Origin: Eubacteriales bacterium
GTDB taxonomy: Bacteria > Bacillota > Clostridia > Oscillospirales > CAG-272
Length of the DNA: 64,000 nt
Assembly: GCA_045659405.1 (NCBI GenBank)
Contig: JAZOWX010000015.1
Span: forward strand, 9,143-73,142
Reading direction: 5' to 3'
A model generated the notes under the pieces. That model saw only the letters and a program-made list of their open reading frames with translations. It did no database searches and was not told the origin of the DNA. Position numbers and translations under genes: made by a program. Position 1 is the first letter of the stretch, and each line of letters opens with the position of its first letter. Below are positions 19,847-59,328 of this stretch, piece by piece.

Positions 19847-20013
19847 AATAAAATCTCCCTGTGAATATTTATTTAAATTTTACCTATTGCTTTTTATGCA
19901 CTTTTATTATATAATGTTTTTGCGCAAAAGCAAAGCGAAAAATTGCTTGTTCTTAACACTAAATTGCTTTTTTCTCGTATTTTTCAAAAAAACAAGGATT
20001 GGAAGAGAAAAAT

Positions 20014-20871
20014 ATGATAAGATACGAAACCCACCTGCCGCTTATGAACAGCGACAAGCCGTTCAAGGAGCATCTTTCAAAAAGAGAGGCGGCGGACAAT
20101 TTCATAGTCAACTGGCACCAGAGCCTGGAGCTTCTCTACCTTGTTTACGGAGACGTTGAGGTTATAACAAACGACGTCGGAGTGCGTCTTTGCCCCGGCG
20201 ACGTGGCGGTGGTAAACAGCTCTTATATTCACGACATTATCTGCCACGAAAAATCGAGCTACTACTGCATTATAGTAAACATAGACTTTCTTTCAGGCTT
20301 CGGTATAAAGATAGACGAGATAGAGTTTGACAGACTCGTGCGCTCGGAGCGTGTAAAAAATCTTACCCTTGAGATTATGAAGATTTGCCAAGAAAAGTCA
20401 CAAGGCTATGAGCTTGTTGCAAAGGCGCATATACTCACACTTGCATCCGAGCTTTTCATCAAGCACTCAAAGCGGCGCGACGAGCTTGGGGGGCGTGACG
20501 GAAACGGAAAGCTTGACGTGGCAAAGGATATTATCAAATATCTTCAGCAAAACTATGCCGAAAAGCTCACGCTTGAAACTATATCGGATGCTGTTGGGTA
20601 TAATAAATATTACGTATCGCATATTTTTAAGTCGGTAGCCGGTGTAACGGTTATGACCTATCTCAATATGCTTCGTGTCTTTCACGCAAAGGAGCTTTTA
20701 AAGACGAAAAAATACACGGTTTCGGAAGCGTGCCGTATGTGCGGCTTCGAAAACCTGTCCTATTTCACAAGAACCTATAAAAAGCATATGGGAAAGCTTC
20801 CGAGCGCAGATTTTGAAAAGGAAGCCGAGCCGAAGGTCCAAAATAACGGTTGTGTCAGCTGCTATTGCTGA
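20014..20871 (+). CDS. AraC family transcriptional regulator (cupin N-domain)
   Basis: ATG at 20014 after ggaagag. C-terminal HTH 'LTLETISDAVGYNKYYVSHIFKSVAGVTVMTYLNMLRVFHAKELL...VSEACRMCGFENLSYFTRTYKKHMGKLP'. Divergent from the oxidoreductase/isomerase genes. Confidence 0.85.
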   Translation: MIRYETHLPLMNSDKPFKEHLSKREAADNFIVNWHQSLELLYLVYGDVEVITNDVGVRLCPGDVAVVNSSYIHDIICHEKSSYYCIIVNIDFLSGFGIKIDEIEFDRLVRSERVKNLTLEIMKICQEKSQGYELVAKAHILTLASELFIKHSKRRDELGGRDGNGKLDVAKDIIKYLQQNYAEKLTLETISDAVGYNKYYVSHIFKSVAGVTVMTYLNMLRVFHAKELLKTKKYTVSEACRMCGFENLSYFTRTYKKHMGKLPSADFEKEAEPKVQNNGCVSCYC

Positions 20872-20903
20872 CAGAAAAACGATAGAGGTAAGGACTCCCT
20901 CCG

Positions 20904-20952
20904 TCATTTCTGCGAAATGCCACCTCCCTCGGTGATGGAGGCTAAAAAGCCA
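20904..20952 (+). repeat. Three-arm hairpin element, copy A
   Basis: actccctccgtCATTTCtgcGAAATGccaCCTCCCTCggtGATGGAGGc. Has a small 6-bp hairpin plus a C-rich/G-rich terminal hairpin, followed by taaaaa. Confidence 0.8.
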
Positions 20953-20962
20953 CCGAGCGCAG

Positions 20963-21024
20963 ATTTTGAAAAGGAAGCCGAGCCGAAGGTTCAAAATAAC
21001 GGCTATGTCGGCTGCTATTGCTGA
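20963..21024 (+). repeat. Untranslated duplicate of the last 62 nt (including stop) of the AraC gene
   Basis: 20810-20871 and 20963-21024 differ at only 4 of 62 positions. Confidence 0.9.
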
Positions 21025-21044
21025 TGGAAAAGGCACCTCATCCA

Positions 21045-21090
21045 CCGCTTTGCGGTCCCCCTTCCCCCACTGGGGAAGGCTAAAATGGCT
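21045..21090 (+). repeat. Three-arm hairpin element, divergent variant (copy B)
   Basis: acctcatccaCCGCtttGCGGtcCCCCTTCCCCactGGGGAAGGc. Same architecture as copy A but different sequence, followed by taaaat. Confidence 0.65.
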
Positions 21091-21145
21091 TATTAATTGC
21101 CACTGATGATAACATATCCCAATATCCCAAAATGGGGGTAAAATT

Positions 21146-22501
21146 ATGAAAGAAAAAATTTTTGATTTGCTCGAAAATCGCAAGCTCGCTGAGCTGAAGC
21201 CGGTTGTTTCGGAAATGAACGAGGTTGAGCTTGCAGAGATTTTCGAAGAGCTTGAAAAGGAGCAGCGCACGCTGCTATTCAGGATACTGCCAAAGGATTT
21301 GGCTGCCGAAACCTTTGTCGAGCTTGAAACCGATACAAAAAAAGCGCTCATTGAGGCGCTTACAGACCGTGAGCTTGGCGAGGTCATAAACGAGATGTTT
21401 GCCGATGATACGGTTGACCTTATCGAAGAAATGCCCGCAAACGTCGTGAAAAGGCTTTTGCGCCAGAGCAACAGCGAAACGAGAAAGACGATAAACGAGC
21501 TTTTGCGTTACTCAAAGGACAGCGCAGGAAGCATTATGACAACCGAGTTTATCTCGCTTTTCCGTGAAATGACGGTAGATGAGGCGCTGGCTAAAATCAA
21601 GCACCGCGCGATAGACTCCGAGACAATTTACACCTGCTACGTTACAGACGGCGCAAGACGGCTGGAGGGCTTCGTTACGGTAAAGGCGCTGCTCCTTGCC
21701 GACAAGGAAAGAAAAATTTCCGAAATTATGGAAGAAAACGTAATCTTTGCGCACACAGACGACGGGCGAGAAGAGGTTGCCCGTATGCTTGCCGATTACG
21801 ACTTCCTTGCCCTGCCGATAGTGGACAAAGAAAACCGCATTGTCGGTATTGTCACAGTCGATGACGCTATGGACGTTATCGAGGAGGAAACAACCGAGGA
21901 TATCGCAAAAATGGCGGCGGTATTGCCAACCGGTGTTCCATACCTGAAGCGCGGTGTTTTTGCAATATTCAAAAGCCGTATTCCCTGGCTTCTTCTGCTT
22001 ATGATAAGCGCAACCTTTACAGGTCTTATAATCAACAGCTTTGAGTCAAGGCTCAACGCAATATCGTCTGTACTTTTTGCCGTAGTGCCTATGATGATGG
22101 ACACGGGCGGAAACTCCGGCTCGCAGGCATCTGTAACCGTAATTCGTGCGCTCTCGCTCGGTGAGCTTGAAATCAGCGACGTTTTCCACGTGCTGTGGAA
22201 AGAGCTTCGGGCATCCCTGCTGCTCGGTATCACCCTCGGTGCCGCCTGCTTCTTAAAGCTTCTCGTTATCGACAATCTGCTCTTTGGATTTTCGGACTAC
22301 ACGCCGATTCGCTGTCTTGTTATTTCGTTAGCGCTCGTTGTAACCGTAATTATAGCAAAGCTCGTCGGCTGCACCCTGCCCATACTCGCAAAGCGGTTAC
22401 GGCTTGACCCTGCGGTTGTAGCTTCACCGTTTATTACGACGATAGTTGATGCGCTTTCCTTGATGCTCTACTGTTCGCTGGCAGTAGCGATTTTGTCGTA
22501 A
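21146..22501 (+). CDS. mgtE: Magnesium transporter MgtE
   Basis: 451 aa with an N-domain, a CBS pair and a TM domain containing 'MMMDTGGNSGSQASV'. Confidence 0.9.
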   Translation: MKEKIFDLLENRKLAELKPVVSEMNEVELAEIFEELEKEQRTLLFRILPKDLAAETFVELETDTKKALIEALTDRELGEVINEMFADDTVDLIEEMPANVVKRLLRQSNSETRKTINELLRYSKDSAGSIMTTEFISLFREMTVDEALAKIKHRAIDSETIYTCYVTDGARRLEGFVTVKALLLADKERKISEIMEENVIFAHTDDGREEVARMLADYDFLALPIVDKENRIVGIVTVDDAMDVIEEETTEDIAKMAAVLPTGVPYLKRGVFAIFKSRIPWLLLLMISATFTGLIINSFESRLNAISSVLFAVVPMMMDTGGNSGSQASVTVIRALSLGELEISDVFHVLWKELRASLLLGITLGAACFLKLLVIDNLLFGFSDYTPIRCLVISLALVVTVIIAKLVGCTLPILAKRLRLDPAVVASPFITTIVDALSLMLYCSLAVAILS

Positions 22502-22671
22502 ATAAACTCCCTCCGTCATTTCTACGAAATGCCACCTCCCTCGGGGATGGAGGCGAAAAATGCGCTTTCCTTGATGCTCTACTGTTCGCTGGCAGTAGCG
22601 ATTTTGTCGTAAATAAACTCCCTCCGTCATTTCTGCGAAATGCCACCTCCCTCGGGGAGGGAGGCAAAAAC
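22450..22671 (+). repeat. Two tandem 111-bp units, each made of the mgtE 3' end plus a hairpin element (copies C and D)
   Basis: 22450-22560 and 22561-22671 differ by about 3 positions. Element copies lie at 22506-22554 and 22617-22665. The real mgtE stop is at 22499-22501. Confidence 0.9.
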
Positions 22672-22765
22672 TGCTCACTTACAGTTGAAATTTTGTAGTA
22701 AATAAAAAACATCTCGGCTTATATGATATTGCCCTTTGGGGTTTTATCATGCCGAGATGCTTTTT

Positions 22766-24067
22766 TTATTTTTGGTCCTTGCGTATTTCCTCACGCTTGA
22801 TTTTGTAAATTTCTTCGGTTGCAAAGCCGAGCTTTGTTACCACGTTTTCTTTGGTGGGATAGCAATAATACGAGTCGTTTGCGATAGAGATATCAAAGCA
22901 GTCATACGGCTCAATATAGCAGTAATCATACTCAATATGCAAACTATTGTTTTCAAGAGGTTGTCTTTGTATCCTGTAATCCTCGCCACGGTAATGCCCC
23001 TCAAGAACAAATCCCTCCTCGGGATTGTGACGCAATTTTGCATCACCGAGATACTCGAAGCGCCAACATCTTGGGAGCGAATAAACACGCACGTCATCAG
23101 AAAATGAATACTCACCGCGCAGAATCTGCCCACGCACCTCGCTACGCTCCCACTCGTACCAATCGGGCACGTGTGAAAACTCGGTTTCGCCATTGTTTGC
23201 AGAAAGTGTGCCGTCGGTATTCAGCGTCCAGCGCTTGCCGCACTCGGTACAGAATATTTCAGCGCCCGACGAGGACATTTTCGACTCGGTTTTACAGCTT
23301 GGGCATTGATAAAGTATTTTATGAAGCCCCTCGGCACGGTATGGTTCGGTTATCTGTATGCCGTTTTCACGCTGATATTTATATTCGTCATACTGAAGCG
23401 CCGCCTTTATTTTCTCGTATATCTCGTCAGCAGACATATTTTTCACGTCATCTGCCGTCAGTATCTGCGTTGCGGTTGTATGAAGCGGCACTTTACGCTT
23501 CTTTCTGAAATTCCAGAAGGGTGTGTGCAGGTGATTTCCACGGTGAACGACTGCCACAACCGGCACCTTACACATTTTAACAAGCGAGCCGAGCGACTCC
23601 GGCATATATGCCGTCGTACCCGATGCCGAATATCTTGCCTCGGGGTACATTGCGAGGATATCACCCCTGTCAACAACCTTTCTTATCGACTTTACAAGAT
23701 GAAAATCGTTGACAAACTTTCTTGTGCATATTGCGCCAATCCATTCAAGAAGCCAGGGGCGTCTGTAATATCCGTCAATATTTACCACGTTATTGACACG
23801 GTATGGGTGGGTTATCTGCGAGGTAAGCTCAAAGTCAATAAAATACTGATGATTGCTGAGTAGAATATACGGCGGCTTCAGGCCCTCCATATTTATTTTT
23901 TCAATCTTGTATTTTTTACCGATAAGAAGTATCTTGGAAAGTATCCATATCAGCCATTCGAGATACCACGGCTGTCTTATCGGGTATTTTGCGGTTTTGT
24001 ACCGCTTTTTGTTTTTGTAGTTGACTTCCTTGTTTGCTTTGTTCATATCATTCATAATGCCATCCAA
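22766..24067 (-). CDS. Lysophospholipid (PlsC-type) acyltransferase family protein with a C-terminal extension
   Basis: 'LLSNHQYFIDFE' (HX4D acyltransferase motif) and 'YPEARYS'. The C-terminal half contains CPSC...CTEC (zinc-ribbon-like). Confidence 0.7.
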   Translation of the reverse strand: MDGIMNDMNKANKEVNYKNKKRYKTAKYPIRQPWYLEWLIWILSKILLIGKKYKIEKINMEGLKPPYILLSNHQYFIDFELTSQITHPYRVNNVVNIDGYYRRPWLLEWIGAICTRKFVNDFHLVKSIRKVVDRGDILAMYPEARYSASGTTAYMPESLGSLVKMCKVPVVAVVHRGNHLHTPFWNFRKKRKVPLHTTATQILTADDVKNMSADEIYEKIKAALQYDEYKYQRENGIQITEPYRAEGLHKILYQCPSCKTESKMSSSGAEIFCTECGKRWTLNTDGTLSANNGETEFSHVPDWYEWERSEVRGQILRGEYSFSDDVRVYSLPRCWRFEYLGDAKLRHNPEEGFVLEGHYRGEDYRIQRQPLENNSLHIEYDYCYIEPYDCFDISIANDSYYCYPTKENVVTKLGFATEEIYKIKREEIRKDQK

Positions 24068-54298: not shown

Positions 54299-55665
54299 TC
54301 GGTATCTCCGTTTCACAGTTTTCTGCGGCTTGTAAGGCTACAATATTTTTGCATATTTATTCATTTTTGCGTTTTCAAACATCTGAGCTATCGAACTAAA
54401 AAAATCGCATCCAAAGGCGATGAGCTGTACAGCCACACAAACCGATATAAGCCAACATAAGAATTATACATCAACAAAGCGCAAAGGTCAAGAGCCGAAG
54501 CATCAATGGCAAAAAACAAAACCAAAAAACAGAAAAAACAAAACCAAAAACAAAAAGCAAAAAAACAAAAAGCAAAAGCAAAAAAACAAAATATCAACCG
54601 TCGCAATCAGTCACACAGAAAGCTGCCTAACGAGCGGCAAAGCCAAAAGCCGCAAAGCTCCCTCAAGCACCCTGCAAAAAAGAGGACAGAGCCACCGTTC
54701 AAAAGCGCCCCGAAAGTGTAGTACAAAAAGACGACCTAAAATCGCCCAAAAAGCACCCTAAAAGCGAGCACGAAAAAGAACAGCCAAAACTGCGCGCACA
54801 AAAAGAAGTACATCACCAGCATCACCCCAAAAGCGTAGTGCAAAAAGAAGAACAGCGCCAAAATTTGCACAGAACGCTTCGGATAGAAAAACGCAAAAAT
54901 CCAAAAAGTTCCGCTAACAGCAAAGCAAAAAACGCAGCAACCCAAAGGAAGCAGCTGCGATAAAGGGGCAAAAAGCACCCTACGTCTTGTCACACAAGAC
55001 ACAAATCCAAGGCAGGAAAAACAGGGAACGTCTGTGCTTATTTATTCTTCTCTGTGCATTTTTATTCACCAATATAAGGAAATTTACTTTCGCACAAATT
55101 ACGAATTAAGCCACAAATTCACAGCAAAAATCGGTGCAAAAATCAGCTTTAAAACACGCCCTTTCGTAAAAGTTACAATCAAAATATGCAAAAACGCCAA
55201 AAATTTGTGCAAAAATCACCCGAGCAAAACAAATTTTCCATTTTTTGTCATAAAAGCCCATATTTTGCCATATTTTACCTTTTAAATCGCAAAATTTGCT
55301 TTTTCTAACAAAAAGAGCTGCGAAGCGCCACGGATGCCTCAAAAAACAGCCAAAAAACACACTAAAAGATCAAAAAACGTGGCAAAATAGCGTAAAAACA
55401 CCGAAAGCATGTCAAAAATACATCAAAACACACTGAAATACCACCCGAAGACCACACCCAAACACACCGCAACGGTTTAAAAAAGGATAAAAAGCGGCAA
55501 AAACAGCAGTAAATATCGGATTTTTGGACAAAATCAGCGCAAATTACCGCAAAAAAACAAACAAAAAGTTGCAGAAAAGGCGGCAATTTCAGGTAAAGGA
55601 AGCAGAGCAACCGCCACGGCTCTTGGCACAGCCACAAGCATTTGCCAAGCCAAAGCGCAAGAAAA

Positions 55666-55681
55666 TGTTTCACGTGAAACA
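55666..55681. promoter_or_regulatory. parS site 1 (perfect)
   Basis: TGTTTCACGTGAAACA, matching the Firmicute parS consensus tGTTNCACGTGAAACa. Confidence 0.85.
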
Positions 55682-55879
55682 CCCAAAAATCAAGCTTTAC
55701 CCACAAAATAGCCATATTTTGCTCAAAAAACAGCGTTTACCTGCATTTTTTCACGGTTTTTGTGCGGATTTTACCGATTTTGAGCTGTTGTGTGGCTCAA
55801 AAAGCGCCCCCTTGGGGTGAAATGCAGCCAAACAGCTAGATTTCAATCGTATATACCACAGTAACACCAGTGGCGCAAT

Positions 55880-55895
55880 TGTTTCACGTGGAACA
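55880..55895. promoter_or_regulatory. parS site 2 (one mismatch)
   Basis: TGTTTCACGTGgAACA. An extra GTGAAAC half-site lies at 55899-55905. Confidence 0.7.
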
Positions 55896-55924
55896 TTTGT
55901 GAAACCATATAGTTATCGAGGATT

Positions 55925-55940
55925 TGTTTCACGTGAAACA
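55925..55940. promoter_or_regulatory. parS site 3 (perfect)
   Basis: TGTTTCACGTGAAACA. Confidence 0.85.
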
Positions 55941-56417
55941 TTCGGCTCATCCGGACAGCCACGAGGGCTTGTTTTGTGATAAAAATCCGATTGTCCAAGT
56001 GTTGTGCAGAGGCAACGTGTGCCAGAGGCGCAAAAGCGGATATATAGCTGTGTTTGACCGATTTTGTGTCTTTTCAGCGTTGTTTTGCAAACTTTGGGCG
56101 GATTTTATTGTGTTTTTGTTGCGTTTCGCCGTGCTTTTGATGCGTTTTTGCCGTTTTGTAGCCTTGTTCTCTGTTTTTTTACCACCAACAACCGCTCTTT
56201 ACAGGCTTTGAGCTTTGCTTGTTCAAAGCTGCGCCTCACCTGTTTCTTGATACTGCCGCATCAGCAACTCCTCAGCTCACAACCTCTCGGCGCACGCCCT
56301 CGGTTTACAAACCTTGACTTACAGCCCTCGACTTACAATACATAGCGCACAGCGCTCAAAAGCAACACCAGTGGGTTTAAGATTGTTTAAACTTATTTAA
56401 ACACCCACACAATTTGA

Positions 56418-56433
56418 TGTTTCACGTGAAACA
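56418..56433. promoter_or_regulatory. parS site 4 (perfect)
   Basis: TGTTTCACGTGAAACA. Confidence 0.85.
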
Positions 56434-56479
56434 TATAGCTTTGCGCAGAAAAAGCGGTCAATTCAGGCGCTTTGCGCCG

Positions 56480-56495
56480 TGTTTCACGTGAAACA
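56480..56495. promoter_or_regulatory. parS site 5 (perfect)
   Basis: TGTTTCACGTGAAACA. Confidence 0.85.
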
Positions 56496-56835
56496 TTTGC
56501 TTTTTTACATCTAGAAGCCGCCACTTGACTTTGAACAGCCTTTTATCTTTTGAAGTCGCTATACAAAACAACACAAAAAGAACACAAAAAGCAAACATAT
56601 AGATAAATAAAAATGAAACCGTACACAGCGCAACCAACAAGCGGGGTGGCAAGGAAATTCAAAAAAGAGAGCAAAGATATCACCAAAACATAGTACAAAG
56701 CAGCTCGAACCTTGCCAAAATACTTTTAACGGTCTTTTTTTGGTTATACTTCGCCATTGAGCTATTGATTTCCCCGGTTTTTCTTTGCTGTGCGTCAATT
56801 AATTACCCGTTTCGCTTTACTGTGCAGTGATAAAT

Positions 56836-57084
56836 CTACGGTTTCACTCCGCCACAAAGCAATCGATTCCTCTTTTTTTGCTCTGTTATGCACCAAACAA
56901 CCCCACACTTCGCTTCGTTATGGAGCAACAAGCTCCCCTTTCTACTCTGATATGCGATAATAAACCCCTGATTTCACTTTGCTACGAGCAACAAGCTCCC
57001 TTTTTTGCTCTGGTATGCGATAACCAACCCAGGATTTCACTTTGCTACGGAGCAATCAACCCCTCTTTTTGCTTTGGTTTGTAG
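56836..57084 (+). repeat. About 4 tandem copies of a 62-66 bp repeat
   Basis: Units start at 56873, 56939 and 57001, with partial units at both ends. The shared core is ttttttgctctgNtatgcNa...(g/a)tttcac...gc(t/c)ac...agcaa...ctccc. Confidence 0.8.
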
Positions 57085-57201
57085 TAAATTCATTGCTGTT
57101 TTAGCTTCAAATCCCGTGTTTTGCTTTTCTTTGCGGTTCTTTCATTTTTATTGTATATTTATATACTATATATAATTATAAGGAAGATTTTTTTATTTAT
57201 A

Positions 57202-57230
57202 TTGACAAAGTCTTGCACTTTTGATATAAT
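57202..57230 (+). promoter_or_regulatory. Consensus sigma-A promoter upstream of soj/parA
   Basis: TTGACA (57202-57207), a 17-nt spacer ending in tga, then TATAAT (57225-57230). Embedded in an AT-rich tract at 57120-57240. Confidence 0.7.
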
Positions 57231-57278
57231 AATTATGTGAACTTATAACTTCTAACCGATTGGAGTAGCTTTTATTCT

Positions 57279-58040
57279 ATGGGAAAGGTTGTTTCTTTTT
57301 CTAACCAGAAAGGCGGCGTAGGAAAAACCACGTCCTGCGTCAATATTTCAGCACAAATAGCCAATAAGGGCAAAAAGGTGCTTATGATAGATATGGACCC
57401 TCAAGGCAATGCAACGAGCGGTCTTGGAATACAGAAATCAAAGATTAAAAAGACAATATACGACGTAATTATCGGAAAATGCGACATAAAAGATGCTATT
57501 ATCAAGACAAATTTCAAGAATTTGTCCGTAGTTCCGGCAAATATTGACCTCGCAGGCGCTGAAATAGAGCTTCACGACCTTGAGGAAGCGGAAAACTTCA
57601 CCAAGCTTGCGCTCGATTCGATAAAGGATAGCTTTGATTACATATTTATAGACTGTCCCCCCTCACTCGGAATGCTTACCGTAAAGGCTCTTACCGCTTC
57701 TGACGGTGTTGTAATACCGATGCAATGCGAATTTTACTCGCTTGAGGGTATGTCACAGCTTTTAAATACAGTAAAGAGAATAAGACAGCTCTATAATCCC
57801 ACGCTCCAGGTTGTCGGAATACTGCTCACAATGTACAACGGCAGACTCACTCTTACCTCCCAGGTTGTTGCGGAGCTTAAAAAGTACTATTCGGACAAGC
57901 TGTTCCGTGTTCCGATTTCAAGAACAGTAAGACTTTCGGAAGCTCCGGGTTACGGTGAGCCTATATGCTATCACGACCCCTACGGAAAGGGCGCTCTTGA
58001 GTATGCAGCCGTTTCAAAAGAGCTTATGATGCGCATTTAA
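57279..58040 (+). CDS. soj: Chromosome partitioning ATPase ParA/Soj
   Basis: 253 aa. Deviant Walker A 'SNQKGGVGKTTS', plus 'MIDMDPQGNATSGLG' and 'IFIDCPPSLG'. Confidence 0.9.
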   Translation: MGKVVSFSNQKGGVGKTTSCVNISAQIANKGKKVLMIDMDPQGNATSGLGIQKSKIKKTIYDVIIGKCDIKDAIIKTNFKNLSVVPANIDLAGAEIELHDLEEAENFTKLALDSIKDSFDYIFIDCPPSLGMLTVKALTASDGVVIPMQCEFYSLEGMSQLLNTVKRIRQLYNPTLQVVGILLTMYNGRLTLTSQVVAELKKYYSDKLFRVPISRTVRLSEAPGYGEPICYHDPYGKGALEYAAVSKELMMRI

Positions 58041-58093
58041 AGCGATAAAAAGCCGATTTTCTTACAAAATCAAACGAGTGTGAAACACTAAAA

Positions 58094-58194
58094 GACAGCA
58101 AAAAGATAGCAAAAAGACAATAAAAAGACGGCAAACAGACAGCAAAAAAGTCAGTAAAAAGTCAGTAAAAAGTCAACAAAGATACGACAAAAAA
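58094..58194 (+). repeat. Nine tandem ~11-bp A-tract units in the soj-spo0J spacer
   Basis: gacagcaaaaa gatagcaaaaa gacaataaaaa gacggcaaaca gacagcaaaaaa gtcagtaaaaa gtcagtaaaaa gtcaacaaa gatacgacaaaaaa. Confidence 0.85.
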
Positions 58195-58254
58195 TATTAG
58201 TCTTACAGATAATTAAATGGTATTTTTTTACCATTTATCACAACGGAGGAATAT

Positions 58255-59145
58255 ATGGCAAAGAAGAACAGCGGTCTTGGAAGAGGACTCGATGCAATTT
58301 TTCTTGACAATGCTACAACAGAGGGCACAGACAGCGAAAACAGAATAACAATCCTGAAGCTGTCGCTCATCGACCCGAACAAGGATCAGCCGAGAAAGAC
58401 GTTTGAAAAAGAACCGCTTGAGGAGCTTGCGGCTTCAATCTCGGAAAACGGACTTCTTCAGCCTATTCTTGTCAGAGAGTACGGTGACGGAAGATATCAG
58501 ATTATCGCAGGCGAGCGCAGATTCCGTGCATCAAAGCTTGCGGGACTTACCGAAGTTCCGACCATAGTTCTTGACAAGGATGACCGCCGTGCGGCAGAAA
58601 TTTCGCTGATAGAAAATATACAAAGAGAGGATTTGAATCCTCTTGAGGAAGCACTCGGCTACCGCTCGCTCGCAGAGCAGTACGGTATGACGCAGGAGGA
58701 AATTTCCGCAAGAACAGGAAAGAGCAGAAGCGCTGTTGCCAATATGATGCGTCTTCTCGACCTGCCCCGTGAGGTGCTTGACCTCGTTGGCGCACGCAGA
58801 CTTTCCGCAGGCCACGCAAGAACACTTCTCGGTCTTCGTGATAGCGGTATGATTATGGATATTGCAAATGCGGCAATAGACGGTGACCTCTCTGTACGCG
58901 CGCTTGAGGAGCTTGTTAAACGCACGAACAAGGCAGCCGCAAAGCCTAAAACCGAAGATGAAGCTCCGCTTCCGATTGTTGATTATTTCAGAGAGCTTGA
59001 GCTTCGTGTTCAATCCGCCCTCGGCAGACGCTGTGTAATTGAGGAAAAGGGCAGAAAGAAGAGAATATCTCTTTATTACGAGGATAACGAGGACCTCACA
59101 GAGCTTCTCGAATCCATCCTCGGAAAAGATTTTATGGATAATTAA
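58255..59145 (+). CDS. spo0J: Chromosome partitioning protein ParB/Spo0J
   Basis: 296 aa. 'GLGRGLDAIF', 'IIAGERRFRAS', 'LIENIQREDLNPLEEA' and an HTH 'TQEEISARTGKSRSAVANMMRLL'. Confidence 0.9.
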   Translation: MAKKNSGLGRGLDAIFLDNATTEGTDSENRITILKLSLIDPNKDQPRKTFEKEPLEELAASISENGLLQPILVREYGDGRYQIIAGERRFRASKLAGLTEVPTIVLDKDDRRAAEISLIENIQREDLNPLEEALGYRSLAEQYGMTQEEISARTGKSRSAVANMMRLLDLPREVLDLVGARRLSAGHARTLLGLRDSGMIMDIANAAIDGDLSVRALEELVKRTNKAAAKPKTEDEAPLPIVDYFRELELRVQSALGRRCVIEEKGRKKRISLYYEDNEDLTELLESILGKDFMDN

Positions 59146-59251
59146 TCGAAGATTTGCAAATATTTGTTGTCAAAAATCCGACTTTTCATATAAAATTTGC
59201 GAAGGCAAACCGTGTTTTTTCGCAACAAACCAACCGCAAATCAAATTTAAT

Positions 59252-59328
59252 TTAATCATAAATCAACTGTAATTTAATTATAAATCAACTATAAGCTAAT
59301 TATAAATCAATCATAAACTAATCATTTT
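59252..59328 (+). repeat. About 3.5 AT-rich direct repeats of ~22 bp
   Basis: ttaatcataaatcaactgtaat / ttaattataaatcaactataagc / taattataaatcaatcataaac / taatcatttt. Confidence 0.75.

What the first reader, a model, noticed from the sequence alone, without database searches (positions are those of the whole stretch)
22450..22671. The same phenomenon at mgtE: the gene's 3' end plus hairpin element is present as two 111-bp tandem units
- Unit 1 (22450-22560) contains the real mgtE end and stop (22499-22501) and element C.
- Unit 2 (22561-22671) repeats the last 51 coding nt, the stop and element D, with about 3 differences.
- The element begins 5 nt after the stop codon in both units.
- Two independent loci within 2 kb show gene-end plus element duplication. 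This argues for a mechanism tied to the element rather than chance.
- The differences fall in the stems: unit 1 has a mismatched terminal hairpin (GATGGAGG) and unit 2 a perfect one (GAGGGAGG).
Basis: seen in the sequence. Interest (0 to 1): 0.65.

Follow-up and report, generated by a model that had tools for sequence, protein, structure and literature searches.

The report
Duplicated mgtE end plus hairpin element
The last ~50 bases of a magnesium-transporter gene plus a small REP-like double-hairpin repeat really are present twice in tandem, with a third decayed copy behind them; this is most likely a by-product of copying errors at the hairpin, resembles tandem clusters known for REPIN repeats, and leaves the protein unchanged.

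Summary
TRF reports a 111-nt period, 2.0 copies, 96% matches at 22449-22674. Each unit holds the last ~50 nt of mgtE, the stop, 5 nt, and a 55-nt double-hairpin element.

It lies between unit 2 and the true terminator.

Related strains show that this site changes often:
- some have [gene end][a different element of the same superfamily][gene end];
- some carry an extra 80-nt module nested in that element;
- near-identical strains (0.1% divergent) have a single gene end;
- more distant relatives have neither element nor duplication.

In every event the right edge of the duplication is the 3' tail of an element. The left edge lies 37-86 nt upstream, at 1-5 nt of microhomology.

The element belongs to a cross-phylum REP/MITE-like hairpin superfamily. 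About 120 other copies show no such duplication, so duplication is not an obligatory part of element insertion.

Best reading: microhomology-mediated slippage or template switching at the hairpin, repeated over time. Older layers also brought in a new element copy.

Tandem REPIN clusters that include flanking sequence (Bertels and Rainey 2011) are the closest precedent. Moderate interest; a new variant of a known kind.

The parts
19999..20871 (+). AraC-family regulator gene (context); its 3' end shows the same phenomenon
   Evidence: ORF; Pfam HTH_18, HTH_AraC and AraC_binding
20793..20878 (+). AraC gene-end copy 1 (in-frame functional end, stop at 20869-20871)
   Evidence: the repeat finder family D3
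20894..20948 (+). Element A (A-type double hairpin), preceded by a 15-nt leader at 20879-20893
   Evidence: Family D2; core match; DNA fold -8.4 kcal/mol, z = -2.8
20946..21031 (+). AraC gene-end copy 2 (untranslated, 91% identical to copy 1)
   Evidence: Smith-Waterman score 70 against a null 99th percentile of 14
21033..21085 (+). Element B (B-type double hairpin; the 19-mer CCACCGCTTTGCGGTCCCC within its core was used as the search pattern)
   Evidence: DNA fold -13.1 kcal/mol, z = -4.2; same core in more than 119 loci of species-representative genomes (about 50 different genomes, from Firmicutes to Proteobacteria and Acidobacteria)
21146..22501 (+). mgtE gene (451 aa), stop at 22499-22501
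22449..22559 (+). Tandem unit 1: last 50 coding nt, stop, ATAAA, then element C (22506-22560)
22560..22670 (+). Tandem unit 2: untranslated copy of the gene end plus element D (22617-22671, perfect second hairpin)
   Evidence: D folds at -11.2 kcal/mol, z = -3.6
22670..22706 (+). Third, 5'-truncated and decayed copy of the mgtE end (29/37 identical, mostly G-to-A changes); the displaced older gene end
   Evidence: Family D5
22704..22772 (+). True intrinsic terminator of mgtE (15-nt arms, then a T run); homologous to the terminator in relatives L001-L003
   Evidence: Inverted repeat I7; blastn match to L003; sequences

Best explanation
The 222-bp stretch is a genuine two-copy tandem array. Its 111-nt unit is the 3' end of mgtE (with the stop codon) plus a 55-nt non-coding, REP/MITE-like double-hairpin element. 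It is the youngest layer of repeated rearrangement at this gene end.

Proposed mechanism (inferred):
- While the + strand is being made, the nascent strand finishes the element's hairpins and A-rich tail, comes off the template, and re-pairs about 50-90 nt upstream at a few bases of microhomology (here A/TGC). GC skew and gene orientation suggest the + strand is the lagging nascent strand in a head-on gene pair.
- It then copies the gene end and element again.
- Older layers formed the same kind of junction but brought in a new element copy. This applies to element D with the decayed copy c3, element A at the AraC gene, and element B in the L002 lineage. The new copy came either by template switching to another copy or by import of a homologous fragment joined illegitimately at the element tail.

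Consequences:
- The upstream copy stays the translated gene end, so the protein is unchanged.
- Downstream copies sit in the 3' UTR and decay.
- Recombination between copies deletes the structure again, as seen in L167 and L168.

Shown: the anatomy, the boundaries, the microhomologies, the strain polymorphism, the hairpin constraint and the absence of a coding change. Inferred: the replication-slippage or template-switch chemistry and the direction of events.
For: Anatomy and boundaries:
- Tandem array and exact differences. The coding part is 56/56 identical, against 3 changes in the element.
- 'TGC' follows both units.
- Third decayed copy, then the terminator.
- All events share the element's 3' tail as right boundary. 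Junction microhomologies are ATGC, ACTG, AAAGC and GC.

Strain comparison:
- L002 and L167 differ by 5 of 4791 nt plus one 114-nt indel. L167 equals an exact copy1-left/copy2-right recombinant.
- States B, B* and empty recur in independent assemblies.
- Outgroups L004, L169-L175 have no element and no duplication.

Hairpin constraint:
- The hairpins are strong and structurally constrained.
- 95 of 109 unique B copies keep a perfect hairpin of at least 5 bp, with 36 different arm sequences; 6 of 109 shuffles do.
- 8 covarying versions of hairpin 1 occur in one skeleton.

Against an obligatory link to insertion:
- Flank duplication is absent from about 120 other copies.
- Other hairpin-bearing units in the clade are tandemly duplicated between short direct repeats without any gene end: 84 nt x2 in L180 flanked by GCGGTG, and 84 nt x1 versus x2 in L175 versus L174.

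Replication context:
- Negative GC skew on the + strand and mostly minus-strand genes put araC-mgtE head-on, with the + strand as lagging nascent strand.

Precedent:
- REPIN clusters are tandem repeats 'including the flanking sequences' (PMC3116915).
Against: - In three of four events the new element differs from the one downstream of the second gene-end copy: A versus B at the AraC gene, intact B versus a decayed relic in L002, and D versus a bare terminator. Simple slip-back on one template cannot explain these; a second template or imported DNA is needed, and no donor was found.
- Elements C, D and A are about equally distant from one another (93-95%) although the flanks of C and D are identical.
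- L001 and L003 carry an element identical over 143 nt inside flanks that differ at 12%. In each strain both gene-end copies carry that strain's own variants. This fits recurrent insertion with target duplication better than one old slippage event, unless the copies are homogenised by gene conversion.
- The same left boundary (within 1 nt) is used in the window and in the L001-L003 lineage. This hints at sequence preference.
- Replication direction is inferred from skew only.
Confidence: 0.5

Rival explanations
1. Each element copy arrived by transposition that makes long, variable target-site duplications (37-86 nt). It inserted just after the stop codon, at the 5' foot of an existing hairpin (an older element or the terminator). 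The duplicated gene ends would then be true target duplications. The behaviour would resemble IS1549 and IS1634, acting on a non-autonomous mini-element with 8-9 nt terminal inverted repeats (CTCCCTCC/GGAGGGAG).
For: - The pattern [flank][new element][flank][older hairpin] holds for all four events.
- The new element differs in type from the older one in three of them.
- Both gene-end copies carry the host strain's own variants, while the element is identical between 6%-divergent strains. Four sites group copies by strain and one by position; that one, TGA versus TAA, can be supplied by the element's first bases.
- Long variable direct repeats of 8-514 bp are documented for IS1549 and IS1634, with no mechanism known (PMC2266710).
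Against: - About 120 other copies of the superfamily, including young near-identical ones, have no flanking duplication.
- No transposase was found among about 34 large ORFs of the window, nor any enrichment among 150 neighbours of other copies.
- Copies within a pair are not identical (6-22% divergent), with mismatches clustered next to the element.
- C would have had to insert exactly at the flank/D boundary.
Confidence: 0.2
2. Gene-end replacement by imported DNA. A fragment from a related strain carrying mgtE (or araC) followed by an element recombined homologously within the gene. Its other end was joined illegitimately, at microhomology with the element tail (A(C)TGC versus GA(T/C)GC in mgtE), inside the resident gene's last 40-90 nt. 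The resident gene end was left behind as a downstream remnant. The 111-nt array would be a later local duplication.
For: - L002 differs from the empty allele L167 by 0.1% overall, yet 2 of the 3 mgtE differences lie in the last 13 nt next to the element (including TAA to TGA). Copy 2 matches L167 from its 4th base on.
- Element B* is identical in strains 6% apart.
- c3 keeps ancestral states that the window's current gene end has lost.
- The tail-to-gene microhomology would explain reuse of the same joint site.
Against: - No donor allele with a simple [gene][element] arrangement was found among 20 orthologous loci.
- All joints would have had to fall upstream of the stop.
- L167 is equally well explained as a deletion product.
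- Competence or another import route of these uncultured Clostridia is unknown.
Confidence: 0.15
3. An HUH-type (RAYT or IS200/IS605-like) enzyme cuts at the element's 3' tail and at a pseudo-site in the gene, releases a single-stranded circle [gene end + element], and re-inserts it next to itself.
For: - The right boundary is fixed at 8-9 nt 3' of the second hairpin, and the left boundary recurs.
- REPIN-like inverted doublets of this superfamily exist in gut contigs.
- RAYT-linked REPINs form tandem clusters with their flanks.
Against: - No Y1 transposase appears among the 25 most frequent of 119 Pfam families matched by 150 neighbouring ORFs of other copies; only those 25 were listed. None was found in the window either.
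- The GTAG or CGTC head typical of RAYT-linked REPs is absent.
- The model predicts identical elements in both units.
Confidence: 0.08
4. Assembly artefact: only one unit exists and the assembler went round a repeat twice, or merged two strain variants.
For: No reads are available. The source genome is not in the protein collection, so there is no independent assembly of this exact strain.
Against: - The units differ at 3 positions within 32 nt. Strain variants would give a bubble in the assembly graph, not a tandem.
- The third decayed copy and the AraC duplication (91% identical) cannot be assembler products.
- Analogous structures recur in at least 8 independent assemblies from different samples.
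Confidence: 0.03

Closest known systems
Tandemly repeated REPIN/REP clusters that include flanking sequence (P. fluorescens SBW25; Bertels and Rainey 2011, PMC3116915)
   Same: - Short hairpin-forming extragenic repeats are found as near-identical tandem units made of a 5' flank plus the element.
- That paper attributes them to 'a second mechanism' distinct from element mobilisation.
- Inverted doublets of the present superfamily exist.
   Different: - Here the repeated flank is the coding 3' end and stop codon of the upstream gene.
- The element is a single module in a Clostridia-type genome, with a different skeleton ([C-box] GTCA-hairpin-TGCCA [C-box] loop [G-box]) and no GTAG head.
- A RAYT link is not shown.
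- Successive layers carry different element types.
Hairpin- and microhomology-mediated tandem duplication by replication slippage or template switching (own knowledge: work on palindrome-stimulated deletion and duplication in E. coli; MMBIR/FoSTeS-type templated insertions)
   Same: - Junctions at 1-5 nt of microhomology.
- A hairpin at the boundary.
- Reciprocal deletion allele present.
- Templated insertion flanked by a duplication.
   Different: - Recurrence at one gene end in several lineages.
- Reuse of nearly the same left boundary.
- The inserted template is always a member of one repeat superfamily.
IS1549 and IS1634 (IS1634 family): long, variable-length direct repeats on insertion (PMC2266710)
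   Same: Insertion flanked by direct duplications of tens to hundreds of bp, of variable length.
   Different: Those are autonomous DDE insertion sequences of more than 1.5 kb. Here the insert is a 48-70 nt non-coding hairpin element, and no such transposase was seen.
Integrase-mediated integration into gene 3' ends (tRNA or protein genes), and mobile ORFs in fungal mitochondria that bring a replacement C-terminus (own knowledge)
   Same: A new gene end is followed by the insert and then by the displaced old gene end as a remnant. The ORF stays intact.
   Different: The insert here is only 55-143 nt and encodes nothing. No integrase or endonuclease is present.
MITEs such as Correia, ERIC, RUP and BOX (own knowledge)
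   Same: Small size, terminal inverted repeats, intergenic position, co-transcription into 3' UTRs, and modular variants (the nested 80-nt module in B*).
   Different: No short fixed target duplication. The cognate insertion sequence is unknown.

Membership tests
REP/REPIN (RAYT-associated) | Short (20-60 nt) imperfect palindrome able to form a hairpin | tested here: met
   Two hairpins per 55-nt module. DNA folds of -8 to -13 kcal/mol, z from -1.5 to -4.2. Covariation in both hairpins.
REP/REPIN (RAYT-associated) | Extragenic, many copies per genome, often as inverted doublets | tested here: inconclusive
   Extragenic: yes. Only 4 copies in this 64-kb window, all single modules. There are multiple copies in other MAGs (13-20 loci per MAG even in the truncated scan, e.g. 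RGIG4611 and RGIG8637) and inverted doublets in gut contigs L176-L179. The whole source genome is not available.
REP/REPIN (RAYT-associated) | Conserved GTAG or CGTC head at the hairpin foot | tested here: not met
   The skeleton is [C-box] GTCA...TGCCA [C-box]; no GTAG or CGTC head.
REP/REPIN (RAYT-associated) | A RAYT (Y1 transposase) gene flanked by the repeats | tested here: inconclusive
   None among about 34 large ORFs of the window. None among the top families of 150 ORFs next to other copies. The sample is too small to exclude a single-copy gene.
MITE | Terminal inverted repeats and no coding capacity | tested here: met
   CTCCCTCC...GGAGGGAG termini in a 55-nt element. Larger composite versions have inverted modules at both ends.
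MITE | Short target-site duplication of fixed length, and a cognate insertion sequence with the same ends | tested here: not met
   No short duplication at the copies inspected. The duplications here are 37-86 nt and variable. No cognate insertion sequence was found.
Diversity-generating retroelement (TR/VR at a gene 3' end) | Repeat pair differing mainly at adenines of the template repeat, with a reverse transcriptase nearby | tested here: not met
   mgtE copies are 56/56 identical. AraC copies differ by mixed transitions and transversions that are not adenine-specific. No RT among the neighbouring ORFs.
CRISPR array | Identical repeats separated by unique spacers, with cas genes or a leader | tested here: not met
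   The 'spacer' is a copy of the adjacent gene end. There are only two repeats and no cas domains in the window ORFs scanned.
Integrase-type att duplication at a gene 3' end | A large element with an integrase between the direct repeats | tested here: not met
   Only 55-143 nt of non-coding hairpin sequence lies between the copies.
IS1634-family long-direct-repeat insertion | A DDE transposase encoded by the inserted element | tested here: not met
   The insert is non-coding. Mobilisation in trans is not testable here.
Known RNA families (Rfam 15) | Match to a curated covariance model | tested here: not met
   No hit at gathering score in the window. Only chance-level hits at E up to 10 in 20700-22900.

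The most novel reading that the evidence does not exclude
In this clade of gut Clostridia, single double-hairpin modules are placed at gene 3' ends by a process that copies 40-90 nt of the upstream target each time. This could be a long, variable target duplication or an imported gene-end cassette. Every arrival then renews the coding end and pushes the old end downstream. That would be a distinct insertion mode for non-autonomous bacterial repeats, and a route to C-terminal and 3'-UTR turnover.
Probability: 0.2. Interest if true: 0.7.

Novelty: new variant of a known kind. Interest (0 to 1): 0.42.

Why it matters
- It gives a clean, polymorphic natural example of how hairpin repeats remodel gene ends without harming the protein. 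Nested layers, an empty allele and a reciprocal recombinant are all present.
- It links an undescribed, cross-phylum double-hairpin repeat superfamily to local structural instability.
- It shows a way for C-termini and 3' UTRs to turn over: the two AraC gene-end copies already differ by 3 amino acids.
- Practically, such arrays confuse gene calling, break short-read assemblies (many copies sit at contig ends) and could serve as strain markers.
- If the rarer reading (long target duplication or cassette import) were true, it would be a new mobilisation mode.

Tried and rejected
- **Rfam:** gathering and permissive scans found nothing.
- **DGR, CRISPR and integrase-att readings:** defining features not met (see the membership table).
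- **A-type core in species-representative genomes:** 0 hits with the 27-mer. **In viral contigs:** 0 hits.
- **Literature search for the core sequences:** nothing relevant. Keyword searches for long target duplications of MITEs or REP gene-end duplications gave nothing specific.
- **Flank duplications around other copies:** an exact-seed test and a sensitive Smith-Waterman test on about 160 copies found none apart from the mgtE and araC loci and one composite-repeat dimer, L092.
- **Are the 'leader' sequences before elements A and B relics of a gene end?** No significant similarity (P = 0.65 and 0.17).
- **Donors of the leaders:** none in the window or in 184 loci.
- **Relic of an older B element after copy 2 in L002 and L167:** only weak support (shuffle P about 0.04).
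- **Transposase next to the elements:** none found.
- **General preference for sitting just after a same-strand stop codon in other genomes:** not seen in a crude ORF-based test.
- **DnaA-box cluster to fix the replication origin:** not found.
- **Homologous unequal crossing-over between c1 and c3 as the origin of the 111-nt array:** rejected. The middle copy would then be a c3-left/c1-right hybrid, but it is identical to c1 throughout.
Full report
**1. Observation**

- Tandem Repeats Finder reports one strong array in the window: 22449-22674, period 111, 2.0 copies, 96% matches. The repeat finder gives 22449-22559 and 22560-22670 at 97%.
- The ORF 21146-22501 is a 451-aa MgtE with MgtE_N, CBS and MgtE domains. 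Its stop lies at 22499-22501, inside unit 1.
- Each unit is the last ~50 coding nt, TAA, ATAAA, and a 55-nt element: ACTCCCTCC-GT-CATTTC-TGC-GAAATG-CC-ACCTCCCTC-GGG-GAGGGAGG-C-AAAAA.
  - 22524, in the loop of hairpin 1;
  - 22548, in the stem of hairpin 2 (GATGGAGG versus GAGGGAGG);
  - 22555 and 22560, in the tail.
- The coding portion is 56/56 identical, and 'TGC' follows both units.
It is 29/37 identical (P about 2e-9), mostly through G-to-A changes. It sits directly after element D and directly before the real terminator, whose 15-nt arms lie at 22704-22718 and 22751-22765 and are followed by a T run.
- The layout is therefore [gene...c1][C][c2][D][c3, truncated and decayed][terminator].
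- The AraC-family gene upstream shows [c1 20793-20878][15-nt leader + element A][c2 20946-21031, 91% identical][element B].

**2. The element**

- A, C and D are 93-95% identical to one another. B is a different type with the same architecture.
- The architecture is a C-rich box, a small hairpin H1, a second C-rich box, a loop, and a G-rich box that can pair with either C-box.
- As single-stranded DNA the modules fold at -8 to -13 kcal/mol, with z from -1.5 to -4.2.
- Rfam has nothing for them.
- The B core 19-mer occurs in more than 119 loci from about 50 species-representative genomes; the scan was truncated. Hosts include Selenomonadaceae, many Clostridia MAGs, Dialister, Bacteroidaceae, and also Brevundimonas, Sphingomonas and Acidobacteria. 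Many copies lie at contig ends.
- The A-type H1 core occurs in 41 soil or rhizosphere metagenome contigs, as part of a repeat of about 230 nt.
- Relatives in human-gut contigs occur as inverted doublets with termini AAACTCC...GGAGTT, which resemble REPINs.
- In some MAGs the module forms both ends of a composite repeat longer than 300 nt.
- Both hairpins are maintained by compensatory change:
  - 95 of 109 unique B copies keep a perfect hairpin of at least 5 bp, with 36 different arm sequences; 6 of 109 shuffles do.
  - Eight different H1 hairpins sit in the same GTCA...TGCCA skeleton.
- This is therefore a widespread REP/MITE-like superfamily that I could not find described.
- No transposase was found in the window or enriched beside 150 neighbouring ORFs of other copies.

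**3. Comparative evidence at the same locus**

MgtE homologues of 79-94% identity were traced to their contigs.

- L002, L166, L182 and L184 have [c1, TGA][CGATGCTTTGA + element B][c2, TAA][terminator].
- L001, L003, L180, L181 and L183 have the same arrangement with an 80-nt module nested in B's second hairpin. I call this variant B*.
- L167 and L168 have a single gene end.
- L004, L005 and L169-L175 have neither element nor duplication. None of the relatives has elements at the AraC gene end.
- L002 and L167 differ by 5 of 4791 nt plus one 114-nt indel. L167 is exactly c1-left joined to c2-right. It is therefore either the ancestor or a deletion product of recombination between the 51-nt repeats.
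- L001 and L003 are 6% divergent in mgtE. They carry B* identical over 143 nt, while the flanking copies differ at 7/51 and 5-6/51 positions.
- At four sites both copies within a strain share the strain's own variant. Only the stop codon (TGA versus TAA) groups the copies by position.
- Likewise, the window's c3 shares ATTTTGT with the window's own gene end.
- Either the duplications are made anew from local sequence, or the copies are homogenised by gene conversion.

**4. What the events have in common**

- The right boundary is always the element's tail, GGC-A(3-5)-(C)(TGC).
- The left boundary lies 37-86 nt upstream, with 1-5 nt of microhomology (ATGC, ACTG, AAAGC, GC).
- The newer [gene end + element] always lies upstream of an older hairpin, whether an element, a possible relic or the terminator.
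- The left boundary of the 111-nt event matches, within 1 nt, that of the L001-L003 lineage. The element tail (A(C)TGC) resembles the gene sequence there (GA(T/C)GC).

**5. Not a general property of the superfamily**

- An exact-seed test and a sensitive local-alignment test on about 160 copies found flank duplication only at these loci. Scores were 70, 56 and 19 in the window and 45-47 in L001, L002, L003 and L166, against a null 99th percentile of 14.
- In 20 kb of the L-lineage the only module is the one at mgtE.
- Other hairpin-bearing intergenic units in this clade are tandemly duplicated between short direct repeats, with no gene end involved:
  - 84 nt x2 between two permease genes in L180, L181 and L183, flanked by GCGGTG;
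  - an 84-nt unit present once in L175 and twice in L174, which encode the same MgtE protein.

**6. Mechanism**

- The 111-nt array itself is most simply a recent microhomology-mediated tandem duplication next to a strong hairpin.
- Replication context:
  - GC skew is negative on the + strand.
  - Most genes between 14 and 54 kb lie on the minus strand.
  - araC and mgtE are therefore probably head-on to replication.
  - The + strand is probably the lagging nascent strand. This is the setting where hairpins favour slippage, but the inference is weak.
- The older layers need more than slip-back, because the new element differs from the downstream one: A versus B, intact B versus a weak relic, and D versus the terminator.
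- Three readings remain for those layers:
  - template switching to another copy;
  - import of a homologous fragment joined illegitimately at the tail;
  - transposition with long, variable target duplication. A precedent exists for IS1549 and IS1634, with 8-514 bp repeats and no known mechanism (PMC2266710).
- I could not find donors, and the leader sequences are not recognisable gene-end relics.

**7. Comparison with what is known**

- Bertels and Rainey (PMC3116915) describe 16 ordered clusters in P. fluorescens SBW25. In these, near-identical REPINs are tandemly repeated 'including the flanking sequences', and the authors attribute them to a second, unknown mechanism.
- The present case is the same kind of structure.
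- It differs in that the flank is a coding 3' end with its stop, the element family and phylum are different, successive layers carry different element types, and strain-level polymorphism is visible.
- Membership in REP/REPIN proper is not established: there is no GTAG head and a RAYT link is not shown.

**8. Verdict**

- The protein is unaffected, and no function is implied.
- Novelty: a new variant of a known kind. Interest: 0.42.
- The most novel reading still open is element arrival coupled to long target duplication or gene-end cassette import. I give it about 0.2 probability.

Noticed in passing
window 22670-22706: A third, 5'-truncated and decayed copy of the mgtE 3' end (29/37 identical, mostly G-to-A changes) lies between unit 2 and the true terminator.
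   Followed up: yes
Genome-contig loci L006-L124; metagenome loci L125-L165: The element cores are conserved across phyla. The exact 19-mer CCACCGCTTTGCGGTCCCC occurs in more than 119 loci from about 50 species-representative genomes, from Selenomonadaceae and Clostridia to Brevundimonas, Sphingomonas and Acidobacteria. The A-type hairpin core occurs in soil metagenomes. The second hairpin always covaries. I found no description of this superfamily.
   Followed up: partly
L001/L003/L180/L181/L183, e.g. L001 4385-4464: An 80-nt module (GTTCTCGC...CTGACAGTCCACTGGACTGTCA...CGCTAC) replaces 5 nt of the 5' arm of element B's second hairpin. It is identical in strains 6% apart and absent from strains whose mgtE is identical (L002, L182). 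This suggests modular swapping within the elements. A similar internal swap is seen in L040, L050, L082 and L098.
   Followed up: partly
L174 about 1330-1500 versus L175 (AraC-mgtE intergenic region): Two contigs encoding the same MgtE protein differ by one versus two tandem copies of an 84-nt GC-rich hairpin-bearing unit, flanked by a CTTGCGCG direct repeat.
   Followed up: partly
L180 17641-17808 (also L181, L183); orthologous gap in the window is about 30464-30517: An 84-nt hairpin-bearing unit is present as a tandem dimer (96% identical, flanked by GCGGTG) between two ABC permease genes. It is absent from the window's orthologous 54-nt spacer.
   Followed up: partly
L001/L002/L167 versus L003 versus L166, AraC gene 3' region: A poly-A tract near the AraC 3' end has 8, 7 or 6 A's in close strains, which shifts the reading frame of the last codons. 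Gene calls are 169, 290 and 202 aa, and the L166 ORF runs into the mgtE start.
   Followed up: no
window 54300-57280: A stretch of about 3 kb without large ORFs contains several tandem repeats: A-rich 6-28 nt units at 54510-54591 and a 63-nt unit x3 at 56874-57073. It lies next to parA and parB (57279-59145). Gene orientation switches from mostly minus to plus here and the GC skew flattens. This could be an origin or partition region, but there is no DnaA-box cluster.
   Followed up: partly
window 58090-58194 and 59238-59322: Further short tandem repeats lie around parB: an 11-nt AAAAGACAGCA unit x8 between parA and parB, and a 22-nt AT-rich unit x3-4 downstream of parB. The latter may be parS-like or iteron-like.
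   Followed up: no
window 22468-22487 and 22579-22598: The mgtE coding end itself contains an 8-bp hairpin (CTACTG...CAGTAG) followed by a T-rich run, which the simple scan scored as terminator-like. It is duplicated with the unit.
   Followed up: no
L112 1730-2100; L104 5080-5270: In distant relatives, the B-type modules sit in intergenic clusters alongside other palindromic repeats. These include GTAGGGGCGG...CCGCCC units with a GTAG head, typical of RAYT-linked REPs.
   Followed up: no
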